DNA from: Escherichia coli
GTDB taxonomy: Bacteria; Pseudomonadota; Gammaproteobacteria; Enterobacterales; Enterobacteriaceae
NCBI RefSeq assembly: GCF_017348835.2
Contig: NZ_CP071375.1
Length of the DNA stretch: 64,000 nt
Strand: one strand, 5' to 3'
Part shown: in pieces, positions 1-3,000 of the stretch
Position numbering within the stretch: position 1 is the stretch's first letter
How the letters are laid out: each line of letters starts with the position of its first letter
Program-made: the position numbers

Positions 1-3000
1 GGCGGAAAAACAGCTCCAGAAACAGCGCACGAAATTTCACTTTTTGTTCGGTATAACCGAGTAACTGGCGGGTCGTAAACAATCCCATAAATCAGTTCCT
101 TTCATTCAGAAATCAGTCAGGCCACCGCGGTGGCCTGATAACGTGTTACGGCAACGCCGCGTGACTCAGGGCACTGCCGGCAAAGGCATTTGCCTTTTTG
201 TGTTCATCCACACTTTCAGGCCAGCGGATTGCCTCCGTCGCAAAGGTCCCCGACTTGTAATAGGTCAGTACCGTCTCTGTGCCTTCAAGCGGCAGTACCA
301 GTATGCCAACTGCACTACCGGCTTTCTGTCCGTCCCAGACCACCAGTTTCCCGCTGGCTTCATCCAGCATCAGGGGCGTCAGTGCCGGTGTTGCCGAGGA
401 AATCCCGCTGCTGCCTGTGGCGGTATGAGCCGGATCATTACCGGCAAAAATACGTACTTCCGCACGCTGTTCAGTGATGTTTTTCGTTACCATATTGTAA
501 AAACCTCCTGTTGATGGTCAGCACTGACTTCATGGCATGGCCATGAGCATTTTCACGTCCGCATCACCGTCTGCTGACGTCTGTGGCACGCCACCCTGTA
601 CCGCAGCCGGTGAATGGTTCGCCATGATGCGTTCAAACAGGGCGGTTGTGGATGCAGAGACCGGTTCTGCCTTACCTGATCCCGCAGCCAGCACAGCCCG
701 GGCGCTCTCCACAGTCATTCCCGGGCAGGCAGCCAGCTGTTCAGCCTGCGCCTCAGCCCCTTTTGCCTCATCCAGTGCCATGATCTGATCACGGAGTGAG
801 GGTCCGGCATCCGCCTGCGGTGAAGCAGCCAGGATCGGGCGGGCTTTTTCCACCGTCATCTCCGGCATCGCCGCCAGCGTTGCCGCCAGTTGTTCACGAC
901 CGTTCGCTTCTTCACACGCCATAATGCGATCGGCTTCACTCTGCGCGGATGCCACCGGCTGCTGCGGTGCCGCCGCGGCCAGAATCGCCCGGGCCTGTTC
1001 AACGCTCATGCCCTGTTGTCCTGCCAGCATCGTGGCAAGCTGTTCACGTCCTTTCGCTTCCTGGCATGTCAGGATCCCCATCACTCGCTGGTTCTCCTGC
1101 GCGGCGGCTTCCGTTGCAGTTAATTGCGGCATAGTGCCTCCTCTGACATTACTGTTCAGCGCCGTGGCCATCACACTGATGGCATCCGACGCATTGACTA
1201 ATTCATCCGCCAGCCCGGCATCAATGCCGGACTGACCTTCAAAAACGGCGGCCTCTGTTCCCGTGACGGCATCAACAGACAGACCGGTAAACATCGCCAC
1301 TTTTTCGGCAAACATCCGGCGCGCCGCATCAATGCGCTGCTGCATGTCCTGGCGAACCTCTGCCGGTAAGGCTTCAAACTGATTGCCATCCACCTTGTGC
1401 GTCCCTGAGTAAATCAGCGTGATATCCACACCGGCCTGCGCCAGATGACCGGCATAGCTGACATGGCTCATCATCACGCCAATGGAGCCGATACGGGATG
1501 TCTGGGTAACCAGCCGTCGGGAGCAGGCCGACGCCAGCAGCATGGCTGCAGAACAGGCCGTGTCATTGCACAGTGCCCAGACCGGCTTCTGCTGACGGAG
1601 GCGGTAAATCATGTCAGCGCAGTCAAACGCGCCGGTGGCCTGCCCGCCCGGACTGTCAATGTCCAGCAGTATGCCCCGCACCTGGCTATCTGCCATTGCC
1701 TGCTGAAGACAGGCGACAATGCCGTCATAGCCAGTCATTCCGGAAAATGGCCGCATCCCCCCCAGCCGGTGCACCAGCGTGCCGGTCACCGGCAGTACCG
1801 CAATACCGTTCACCACCCGGTAAACACGGGCCGGTCGTTTACCTCCGGCCATGTACTCGTCCGTTTCAGCCAGCATTCCGGGAGCATCAAGCTGTACCTG
1901 CTGTTGTGGTACCGAAAGACTTGCTGCCCCCATCTCGCGCCCGAGCGCGCAAAAGAAAACCCGCGCATAGGCGGGCTCCAGAAGCAGCGGTTCATTGAAT
2001 GCTGCGGCAATAATGTGTGAAAGATTACGTCTCACGTGGTGTTGTCTCCTCTTCCGGCCTGCGACTCTCCGCTATCTGCTGCTGATACGCCTGCGCTATC
2101 CACACCGGACGTGAGAGTCCGGCTTTTTCCCGCTCTGCAGATTCCCTGACCTGCTGGCGGAAAATGTCCTGATAATCCTCGCCCATCAGCGCCAGCTCTT
2201 TCTCATACGTGCTCAGTCCGGCCTCAATGCGCATCACTGATTCCTGAACCTCCTTGAGCCCGTCAATGGCCATTCTTCCGGCTCCAATCCACTCAGCCCG
2301 TGACCAGGCTGATCGCGCCTGATAAAAATCAAAACGTGCCCGTGGCGGACGAATAATCCCCCGAAGAAGTGCCTCTTCCAGCCAGCAGGAAAACATCTGC
2401 GTGGCCAGCCGGGACGCAATAAATTTTCGCCGCCCCATAAAATAGCGCCACGACTCATTGGCGGATGCGCGGGCACTTGAATAACTGACCTTCGAGTAAT
2501 CACGGGACAACTGTTCGTAGGAAACGCCAAGACCGGCGGCGATATACCGCAGCAGCGCCTGTTCAAGCGCCGAAAATCCATTGTCTGAATCCTGCGCGGT
2601 CTGAAGTTTCAGATCATCACCGGGGAAAAGGTGCGGAATTTTGACACCGCCCAGCGTCACGCTATTCGTGTCATACCAGGTGGAGAACTTATCCAGAATA
2701 TTAATAAGCGGATTATCCTTCTGCCCCTGCGGCGCACCGGCGATATATTCAAAGGCCTTTTCGGTATCAAGGTCACTTTCAATCGTCGCTGCATACATCG
2801 CCTTCACTATGGCCGACTGAAGCTGTGTTGCCTGCAGGGAATCGAGCATCTTCAGCCGTTCCATGACGCTGTAAAACTGATTGGCCCCACGGGTCTGCCC
2901 GTCCTCCACCGGCTCGAAAATATGCAGCATGGCCGGACGCCCGGTGGGAAGTTCACGCGGGATCCGTTCCCATCGTCCACTCCCGGAGAACGGAAAATCA

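What the first reader, a model, noticed from the sequence alone, without database searches (positions are those of the whole stretch)
121..140. Perfect palindrome in the D-E intergenic region
AGGCCACCGCGGTGGCCT (18-bp perfect inverted repeat) lies between the decoration and major capsid genes, and could form an mRNA stem-loop affecting relative translation or processing.
Basis: seen in the sequence. Interest (0 to 1): 0.15.

Follow-up and report, generated by a model that had tools for sequence, protein, structure and literature searches.

The report
Conserved mRNA hairpin before capsid gene
The palindrome is real and is this prophage's version of a strong RNA hairpin that almost all lambda-like phages carry between their head-decoration and major-capsid genes, a known and fairly ordinary feature whose exact role is still untested.

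Summary
The palindrome exists and is longer than reported. It is a 22-bp perfect inverted repeat at window 117-138 (TCAGGCCACCGCGGTGGCCTGA); the quoted 18-mer is 119-136. Genes here run on the minus strand. The repeat lies 7 nt after the stop of a lambda-D/phage-21-shp decoration gene (146-493) and 28 nt before the ATG (88..86) of the major capsid gene. The head module is phage-21 type.

A GC-rich hairpin sits at this junction in 18 of 20 lineage representatives of lambda-like head modules, including two from Vibrio, with different stem sequences. Five of nine stem pairs show two-sided changes. Internal mismatches are G·U on the mRNA strand, which argues for an RNA structure.

In lambda, N15/mEp237, 705R4 and Vibrio types the hairpin is followed by 4-9 T (7-9 in the enterobacterial types). 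That is a canonical intrinsic terminator, and mEp237's GenBank record annotates it as one. In the phage-21 type the T-run has decayed (CTGATTTCTG), while the stem is the strongest among the enterobacterial examples.

Best reading: a terminator-derived intercistronic mRNA stem-loop, read through by Q-modified polymerase, now acting mainly as an RNA decay or processing barrier with at most weak termination. This function is inferred, not shown. It is a new member of a known kind, of low interest.

The parts
117..138 (-). 22-bp perfect palindrome. On the late mRNA it forms a stem-loop: 9-bp stem UCAGGCCAC/GUGGCCUGA with loop CGCG.
   Evidence: -16.8 kcal/mol as a simple stem-loop, -18.1 with the extended stem. 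Same sequence in phage 21.
107..116 (-). 3' tail of the hairpin, CUGAUUUCUG. It is a degenerate U-tract at the position where relatives have 4-9 T (7-9 in the enterobacterial types).
   Evidence: Tail score 1.1-1.25 against 3.6-4.95 for lambda, mEp237, 705R4 and Vibrio types. It passes only the lenient scan. It is not annotated as a terminator in the curated phage 21 genome, which does annotate two other late-operon terminators.
139..145 (-). 7-nt spacer between the D/shp stop codon and the foot of the hairpin.
   Evidence: In relatives this distance varies from 0 to 36 nt.
146..493 (-). Head decoration gene (lambda D / phage 21 shp homologue, 115 aa), with its stop codon at 146-148.
   Evidence: ORF. 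Pfam HDPD E = 4e-24. 96.9% DNA identity to phage 21 shp. RefSeq calls it 'head decoration protein'.
97..100 (-). Shine-Dalgarno AGGA of the major capsid gene, 9-12 nt before the ATG and about 16 nt 3' of the hairpin foot.
   Evidence: Position of the ribosome_binding_site annotated in M81255, mapped onto the window sequence. It is not paired with the hairpin in the MFE or centroid structures.
1..88 (-). 5' end of the major capsid gene (lambda E / phage 21 gene 7), ATG at 88..86. The gene is cut by the window edge.
   Evidence: The N-terminus MGLFTTRQLLGYTEQKVKF matches phage 21 gp7.

Best explanation
The palindrome encodes a sense-strand stem-loop in the Q-dependent late mRNA. It is the phage-21-lineage version of the intercistronic, Rho-independent-terminator-type hairpin that lambda-like head operons carry between the decoration gene (D/shp) and the major capsid gene (E/gp7).

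Shown: it is statistically non-random and positionally conserved. Its pairing is kept through sequence change, and the evidence points to the RNA strand.

Inferred:
- During lytic growth, Q-modified RNA polymerase, which ignores terminators, transcribes through it, so the hairpin ends up inside the polycistronic late mRNA.
- In this lineage the U-tract has decayed while the stem has become stronger, so efficient termination is unlikely.
- The main action is then probably on the RNA. A stable stem-loop would stall 3'-to-5' exonucleases (PNPase, RNase II) and define the end of decay or processing intermediates.
- The effect would be to protect the D-containing upstream segment. A second hairpin just after the capsid gene would do the same for E.
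- It may retain a weak ability to stop polymerases that are not Q-modified.
For: 1. Non-random, strong hairpin.

2. A hairpin occupies the same junction in 18 of 20 lineage representatives, each with p <= 0.018 against shuffles: phage 21, Gifsy-1, lambda, N15/mEp237-like, 705R4, Trabulsiella, Pluralibacter, Leclercia, two Vibrio phages and several IMG/VR lineages.

3. On an 18-sequence alignment, 95% of cells are paired. Five of nine pairs change on both sides. The covariation score is 0.46 against 0.24, with 0 of 500 shuffles as high. Slid controls give 28-52% paired.

4. Internal transition mismatches are G·U on the mRNA strand in 9 cases and 0 on the other strand. One further case of each kind occurs among 21-type variants.

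5. Among 111 distinct 21-type contexts, 7 of 8 substitution events fall in the loop or the top two pairs. The only basal change is wobble-compatible, C to U opposite G.

6. Relatives show a canonical terminator shape, and mEp237's record annotates a 'rho-independent terminator' there.

7. The 21-type tail score is only 1.1-1.25, and the curated phage 21 annotation does not call it a terminator. Its stem is nevertheless the most stable of the enterobacterial examples.

8. The capsid gene is also followed by a GC-rich hairpin in 7 of 7 lineages checked. In phage 21 the two strongest same-strand hairpins of the 20-kb late region flank the capsid gene.
Against: No transcript-end, half-life or termination data were available, so the RNA-barrier role is inference from structure and from general knowledge of exonuclease-blocking stem-loops.

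The element is dispensable in some relatives. Providencia prophages with 81% identical capsid protein have a 26-nt spacer with no hairpin, and Chi has 12 nt.

D and E are needed in near-equal amounts (established knowledge for lambda), so a device that favours D mRNA over E mRNA has no obvious purpose.

Conservation of the T-run in most other lineages suggests the ancestral selected function is termination, or a U-rich leader, rather than RNA protection.

The alignment used for pair counting was anchored on hairpins found by a hairpin search, which biases it towards pairing. Many two-sided changes trace to the single split between the 21 clade and the lambda clade. Template-switch mutation in palindromes can create 'compensatory' changes without selection.
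Confidence: 0.55

Rival explanations
1. It is still a working, if partial, Rho-independent terminator. It stops RNA polymerase that has not been modified by Q (leaky read-through of tR', or spurious starts inside the head genes), so the capsid and downstream genes are expressed only under antitermination. Alternatively it trims downstream transcript levels.
For: It is positionally equivalent to canonical terminators in lambda, N15/mEp237, 705R4 and Vibrio types, one of them annotated as such. It passes the lenient terminator scan. The literature notes that intra-operon terminators are common in lambdoid late operons and proposes exactly these two roles (PMC8022706).
Against: The U-tract is poor, CUGAUUUCUG, with a tail score of 1.1-1.25 against 3.6-4.95 in relatives. 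By the TransTermHP default as I recall it, roughly 2.5 is needed. The curated phage 21 genome annotates terminators at I-J and after J but not here. The hairpin starts only 7 nt after the D stop codon, so a terminating ribosome would cover its 5' arm (ribosome footprint from general knowledge).
Confidence: 0.25
2. It tunes translation of the major capsid gene. Possible modes are a structural boundary just 5' of the ribosome-binding site (insulating it from upstream coding sequence), a block to ribosomes arriving from D, or presentation of an adjacent U/A-rich enhancer.
For: The distance from the hairpin's GC core to the capsid ATG is tightly constrained: 17-24 nt in U-tract types and 29-36 nt in the 21/Gifsy clade. 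The distance from the D stop varies from 0 to 36 nt. The Shine-Dalgarno sequence is left unpaired.
Against: Partition-function modelling shows no change in accessibility of the ribosome-binding site when the hairpin is deleted or either arm is scrambled (0.41 against 0.40-0.50). In one mosaic relative (L060) a different hairpin travels with a different D gene while the capsid ribosome-binding region stays 21-like, so the hairpin behaves as part of the upstream unit. Similar hairpins also follow the capsid gene.
Confidence: 0.07
3. The DNA palindrome itself is the functional unit (a dimeric protein-binding site, or a cruciform or recombination hotspot), and the RNA hairpin is incidental.
For: Symmetry is perfect through the centre. 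A frequent variant changes the centre from CGCG to CATG, two substitutions that keep the 22-bp palindrome perfect, seen in 21 of 111 contexts. An IS200-like element is inserted 3 nt from the hairpin foot in one contig, and a rearrangement breakpoint lies in the loop of the lambda-type hairpin in another.
Against: The second commonest variant (31 of 111) and several others break the symmetry. Hairpins of the other lineages have non-palindromic loops such as CTGT, GAA and TTGC. Mismatches are strand-asymmetric, G·U on the mRNA strand only, which DNA symmetry does not explain. The symmetric double change is what template-switch mutation at quasi-palindromes produces (general knowledge).
Confidence: 0.04
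4. It is a functionless relic: a former terminator that lost its U-tract and persists only because it has not yet decayed.
For: Loss of the T-run in the 21/Gifsy/Trabulsiella clade and complete loss of the hairpin in Providencia relatives.
Against: The basal 7 bp are invariant across 111 distinct contexts apart from one wobble-compatible change, while the loop varies freely. Only 1 of 8 substitution events falls in the 14 basal positions of 22, a probability of about 0.005 by my own calculation from the counts. The stem is stronger, not weaker, than in lineages with working terminators.
Confidence: 0.09

Closest known systems
D-E intergenic Rho-independent terminator of lambda-like phages (lambda 6099-6125 region; annotated in phage mEp237, NC_019704 5938-5958)
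   Same: Same junction (decoration gene stop to major capsid gene start), same strand, GC-rich 7-9-bp stem with a 3-4-nt loop. It shares the AGGCC..GGCC(T) core with the lambda and Gifsy-1 hairpins.
   Different: The window's version has a longer, perfectly palindromic stem (-16.8 against about -12 kcal/mol) and lacks the T7-9 run. It sits 29 nt rather than about 20 nt from the capsid ATG and only 7 nt from the D stop.
Intra-operon terminators of lambdoid late operons (for example P22/L, after the procapsid gene module)
   Same: Terminator-like hairpins inside a single antiterminated late operon, next to the most highly expressed structural genes. The literature states that their roles are not known (PMC8022706).
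   Different: Those are predicted canonical terminators. This one fails the U-tract criterion.
Intercistronic mRNA-stabilising stem-loops (REP elements in malE-malF; puf operon hairpins of Rhodobacter). Recalled from general knowledge, not tested here.
   Same: A stable stem-loop between cistrons of one transcript, without a U-tract. Such elements are known to block 3' exonucleases and raise the level of the upstream segment.
   Different: It is not a dispersed repeat, being single-copy in the window and tied to the prophage head module. No decay data exist for it.
Lambda tR' / 6S terminator and the Q antitermination system
   Same: It lies in the transcription unit whose polymerase is made terminator-resistant by Q, which explains how a hairpin or terminator can sit inside an essential operon (general knowledge; PMC7547250).
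   Different: tR' is the regulated target of Q at the start of the operon. This element lies about 6 kb into the head genes and has no known regulatory partner.

Membership tests
Rho-independent (intrinsic) terminator | GC-rich stem-loop (about 5-14 bp stem, 3-8 nt loop) in the transcribed strand | tested here: met
   9-bp stem with 6 G-C pairs, 4-nt loop, -16.8 to -18.1 kcal/mol.
Rho-independent (intrinsic) terminator | Run of U (typically at least 4-5 of the first 8 nt, starting at the stem foot) immediately 3' of the stem | tested here: not met
   The tail is CUGAUUUCUG. Its tail score is 1.1-1.25 against 3.6-4.95 in relatives with T-runs. It passes only the lenient scan. It is not called a terminator in the curated phage 21 genome.
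Rho-independent (intrinsic) terminator | Located after a gene end, in the sense orientation of the operon | tested here: met
   It lies 7 nt after the D/shp stop on the late-operon strand. On the opposite strand no T-run follows.
Rho-independent (intrinsic) terminator | Measured release of transcripts at the site | not testable with these tools
   This needs in vitro transcription or Term-seq. A public Sakai Term-seq dataset is named in PMC7547250 but cannot be read here.
Conserved D-E intercistronic hairpin of lambda-like head modules | Stable hairpin in the spacer between the HDPD-family decoration gene and the lambda-E-family capsid gene, on the mRNA strand | tested here: met
   Window. Relatives: 18 of 20 lineage representatives. 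Pairing kept through two-sided changes.
REP/BIME-type dispersed palindromic repeats | Many dispersed copies in the host genome with a shared consensus | tested here: not met
   One copy in the 64-kb window, even allowing 3 mismatches. All database copies found lie in phage-21-type head modules.
Any curated RNA family (Rfam 15) | Match at the gathering threshold | tested here: not met
   There are 18 hits in the window, none at 89-145.
Palindromic protein-binding site (operator-like) | Two-fold symmetry conserved as such, including positions not needed for an RNA stem | tested here: inconclusive
   The CGCG to CATG variant keeps the symmetry (21 contexts), but GCGT, GCGC and CACG variants (35 contexts) break it. 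Other lineages have asymmetric loops.
RNase III processing site | About 20 bp or more of near-continuous double-stranded RNA | tested here: not met
   The maximum is 13 pairs with a bulge. The length requirement is from general knowledge.

The most novel reading that the evidence does not exclude
Lambda-like phages may bracket their major capsid gene with two nuclease-resistant stem-loops, one before it at the D-E junction and one after it at E-FI. These would carve stable D- and E-bearing segments out of the 20-kb-plus late transcript. The phage-21 lineage, having lost the U-tract but strengthened the stem, would then show that RNA protection or processing, not termination, is the selected function of these 'intra-operon terminators', whose role the literature calls unknown.
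Probability: 0.25. Interest if true: 0.35.

Novelty: new member of a known kind. Interest (0 to 1): 0.15.

Why it matters
The importance is modest. Three practical points follow:

- It gives a concrete, testable case for a small open question: what terminator-like hairpins inside antiterminated phage late operons are for. Natural variants exist with a U-tract (lambda), without one (phage 21) and with no hairpin at all (Providencia prophages), all in otherwise homologous head modules.
- It is relevant to annotation. Standard terminator predictors miss the 21-type element, although this head module occurs in about 2,000 of 5,426 complete E. coli genomes.
- It is relevant to engineering of D-fusion display or capsid-expression constructs, where keeping or dropping the spacer could change D and E mRNA levels.

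Tried and rejected
1. Rfam at gathering thresholds found nothing at the site.

2. I asked whether the element is the terminator of one of the recently reported Hfq-bound lambda sRNAs. PreS/LPR1 lies in the early left operon, and LPR2 and 6S lie next to pR', so there is no link.

3. The lambda ribosome-profiling paper (recalled as PMC3718152) is not held. The CRISPRi essentiality paper has nothing on D-E polarity or terminators. Three other literature searches found no experimental work on this hairpin.

4. Modelling of a translational-insulation role showed no effect on accessibility of the ribosome-binding site.

5. The genome-contig scan returned only 10 loci. They were still useful: Providencia, Trabulsiella, Pluralibacter and Leclercia.

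6. Contig L031 first looked like a mosaic variant with a different hairpin. It is an IS200-like insertion (Pfam Y1_Tnp) whose own end hairpin was being scored, so I excluded it. L116 is a rearranged contig, with a holin gene joined inside the hairpin loop, and was also excluded.

7. The terminator scanner does not list lambda's own D-E terminator, because its A/T pairs absorb the T-run into the stem. I therefore recomputed tail scores from the GC core.

8. The sigma-70-like match at 521..494(-) ends directly against the D start codon, so it cannot make a translatable D transcript. I treated it as chance; one was found where 2.2 are expected.

9. Tandem Repeats Finder did not detect the 'Tri box' repeats that GenBank annotates in the phage 21 scaffold gene.

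Full report
**Observation**

The window's left end carries lambdoid head genes on the minus strand:
- portal, 2025-3617
- S49 protease/scaffold, 530-2035
- a 115-aa decoration gene, 146-493
- the first 88 nt of the major capsid gene, ATG at 88..86

The decoration protein hits Pfam HDPD at E = 4e-24. The first 520 bases are 96.9% identical to phage 21 shp and gene 7. The window is 100% identical over its first 4 kb to the E. coli PE164 chromosome.

The quoted 18-mer sits at 119-136. The perfect inverted repeat is actually 22 bp, 117-138, TCAGGCCACCGCGGTGGCCTGA.

Markov simulations give about 0.01 palindromes of 22 bp or more per window, but about 0.27 of 18 bp or more. The extra four bases therefore matter for significance.

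On the mRNA strand it folds as a 9-bp stem with a 4-nt loop, or 13 pairs with one bulge: -18.1 kcal/mol, z = -4.7. It begins 7 nt after the D stop and ends 28 nt before the capsid ATG. The Shine-Dalgarno sequence (97-100) is left unpaired.

**Conservation**

I collected D-E junctions from several sources:
- named phages: 21, lambda, Gifsy-1, mEp237, 705R4, Enterobacter MStein, Vibrio ST2-1pr and K245, and Chi
- 160 IMG/VR loci found with capsid-protein alignments
- 10 loci from species-representative genomes
- 120 loci from a flank-anchored DNA pattern

Of 20 lineage representatives, 18 have a hairpin in the spacer that is far stronger than shuffles (p <= 0.018 each). One of these 18, contig L031, was later recognised as an IS200-like insertion whose own end hairpin had been scored (see Side observations). 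Without it the count is 17 of 19, and the conclusion does not change. The exceptions are Providencia prophages (26-nt spacer, capsid protein 81% identical) and Chi (12 nt).

Stem sequences differ between lineages. Examples are AAAGGCCGC/GCGGCTTTT in lambda, GAAGGCCGC/GCGGCCTTT in Gifsy-1, GGGTCGC/GCGGCCC, GGCTGCC/GGCGGCC, and two unrelated stems in Vibrio phages.

On an in-register alignment of 18 distinct sequences:
- 95% of cells pair
- 5 of 9 pairs change on both sides
- the covariation score exceeds all 500 shuffles
- slid controls pair at only 28-52%

Three caveats apply. The sequences were chosen by a hairpin search. Much of the covariation reflects one deep split between the 21 and lambda clades. 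Palindromes can also acquire symmetric changes by template switching.

**RNA or DNA, and which strand**

Internal transition-type mismatches in the stems are G·U on the mRNA strand in 9 distinct hairpins and never A·C. Among 21-type variants there is one further case of each. This asymmetry fits selection on the sense RNA. It does not fit a DNA cruciform, a protein site or an antisense RNA.

Within 111 distinct 21-type contexts, 7 of 8 substitution events lie in the loop or the top two pairs. The single basal change gives a U·G wobble. By my calculation from those counts, so few basal changes has a probability of about 0.005 if changes were spread uniformly.

One frequent variant changes the loop from CGCG to CATG and keeps the 22-bp palindrome perfect. 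The commoner GCGT variant breaks the symmetry, so symmetry as such is not conserved.

**What kind of element**

In lambda, N15/mEp237-like, 705R4, L103, L109, L113 and both Vibrio types the stem is followed directly by a T-run. This run is 5-9 T in the enterobacterial types, 7-9 in most of them, and 4-6 T in the two Vibrio phages. That is the canonical shape of an intrinsic terminator. The GenBank record of mEp237 annotates 'rho-independent terminator' at exactly this junction.

The window's hairpin is positionally equivalent and shares the AGGCC...GGCCT core, but its tail is CTGATTTCTG. A d'Aubenton-Carafa/TransTermHP-style tail score (formula recalled from memory) is 1.1-1.25. The canonical relatives score 3.6-4.95 and Gifsy-1 scores 3.15.

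The curated complete phage 21 genome annotates terminators between I and J and after J, but nothing between shp and gene 7.

So a defining terminator feature was tested and is not met. I do not file the element as a terminator. I describe it as terminator-derived, or working like the hairpin half of one.

**Context that bears on function**

The capsid gene is also followed by a GC-rich hairpin in all seven lineages checked. In phage 21 the two strongest same-strand hairpins of the whole 20-kb late region are the ones flanking gene 7.

The distance from the hairpin's GC core to the capsid ATG is tight: 17-24 nt in U-tract types and 29-36 nt in the 21/Gifsy clade. The distance from the D stop ranges from 0 to 36 nt.

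Modelling shows no effect of the hairpin on accessibility of the capsid ribosome-binding site.

The literature held here has no experiment on this site. A recent lambdoid genome paper states that intra-operon terminators are common, that their roles are unknown, and that they may reduce downstream mRNA or stop non-antiterminated transcription (PMC8022706).

**Mechanism, as far as it can be committed**

Established knowledge is that lambdoid late operons are transcribed by Q-modified, terminator-resistant polymerase. Any hairpin here is therefore read through and ends up inside the late mRNA.

The stem is strong and conserved, the U-tract has decayed, and a partner hairpin follows the capsid gene. 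The most likely action in this lineage is therefore on the RNA. It would act as a barrier to 3' exonucleases and a boundary of processing intermediates, stabilising the D-bearing segment, with at most weak residual termination of unmodified polymerase (confidence about 0.55).

The rivals are:
- a still-functional partial terminator or insulator (0.25)
- a relic without function (0.09)
- a translational role (0.07)
- a DNA-level role (0.04)

None of these can be separated without transcript-end or mutational data.

**Verdict**

This is a phage-21-type member of a known class of intercistronic terminator-like hairpins in lambda-like head operons. It is common, since the module occurs in 2,038 of 5,426 complete E. 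coli genomes, and of low novelty.

**Side observations**

- An IS200-like insertion lies 3 nt from the hairpin foot in one contig.
- A rearrangement breakpoint lies inside the lambda-type hairpin loop in another contig.
- The large terminase gene of this prophage is frameshifted.
- There are several other long palindromes and RNA-family hits elsewhere in the window.

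Noticed in passing
L004 1548-1600 (phage 21, outside the window to the left of position 1); also L006, L005, L098-L101: The major capsid gene is followed as well as preceded by a GC-rich hairpin in all 7 lambda-like lineages checked. 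In phage 21 it is GCGGGGGCgaaatGCCCCCGT plus CTTTTTT. In phage 21 these are the two strongest same-strand hairpins of the 20-kb late region.
   Followed up: partly
window 3804-5731 (-): In the RefSeq record of the identical E. coli PE164 chromosome, the large terminase gene of this prophage is annotated as a frameshifted pseudogene. The prophage may be defective.
   Followed up: no
L031 1-440 (IMGVR_UViG_2654587509_000011): An IS200-like Y1 transposase gene (Pfam Y1_Tnp, E = 1e-16), with its own end hairpin, is inserted in the D-E spacer. Its end lies 3 nt downstream of where the palindrome's foot would be. The left junction is off the contig.
   Followed up: partly
L116 376-800 (IMGVR_UViG_2585427783_000006): A lambda-type capsid gene is preceded by a putative holin gene (Pfam Phage_holin_8) instead of D. 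The junction falls exactly in the loop of the lambda D-E hairpin, so only the right arm and the T-run remain.
   Followed up: partly
21-type hairpin variants, e.g. L009, L088 (centre of window 117-138): The loop variant CGCG to CATG needs two substitutions yet keeps the 22-bp palindrome perfect (21 of 111 contexts). The single-step intermediate CACG is also seen (2 contexts). This looks like template-switch correction at a quasi-palindrome, and it is a caution for reading 'compensatory' changes in palindromes as selection.
   Followed up: partly
L089-L091 (Providencia alcalifaciens): Prophages with a capsid protein 81% identical to phage 21 gp7 have only a 26-nt D-E spacer and no hairpin at all. 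They are a natural 'deletion' control.
   Followed up: no
L087 (JAIJJM010000220.1, MAG labelled Collinsella sp.): A 4.8-kb contig of a Collinsella MAG carries a phage-21-type capsid gene (94% protein identity) with the CATG hairpin variant. This is probably an E. coli prophage fragment mis-binned into the MAG.
   Followed up: no
window 1-89; MT713136.1 250152-250240: The 254-kb Aeromonas phage AP1 record contains an 89-bp stretch 97.8% identical to the 5' end of this capsid gene, with nothing annotated there. It may be an assembly chimera or contamination.
   Followed up: no
window 32889-32914; 23904-23923; 28384-28401: There are other long perfect palindromes: 26 bp AAAAAATTTCTACGTAGAAATTTTTT, 20 bp TTGTTAGTCATGACTAACAA and 18 bp GGCAGGGGATCCCCTGCC. 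The window has four palindromes of 18 bp or more where about 0.27 are expected.
   Followed up: no
window 10612-10728(+), 44096-44212(+), 57111-57227(-): Three identical ALIL frameshift-pseudoknot hits mark three copies of an IS3-family insertion sequence, one of them inside the prophage.
   Followed up: no
window 13681-39132: Rfam and ARAGORN hits outline the rest of the window. The prophage tRNA cluster Arg-Arg-Met is at 14624-14873(-). STnc100 is at 13681-13853(-), sok at 18169-18343(-) and DicF at 25423-25474(+). tRNA-Ser is at 29929-30018(-). There are four tRNA-Asn genes. EFASI is at 36526-36655(-). C4 antisense RNA and isrK lie at 38927-39132(-), suggesting a second, P4-like element.
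   Followed up: no
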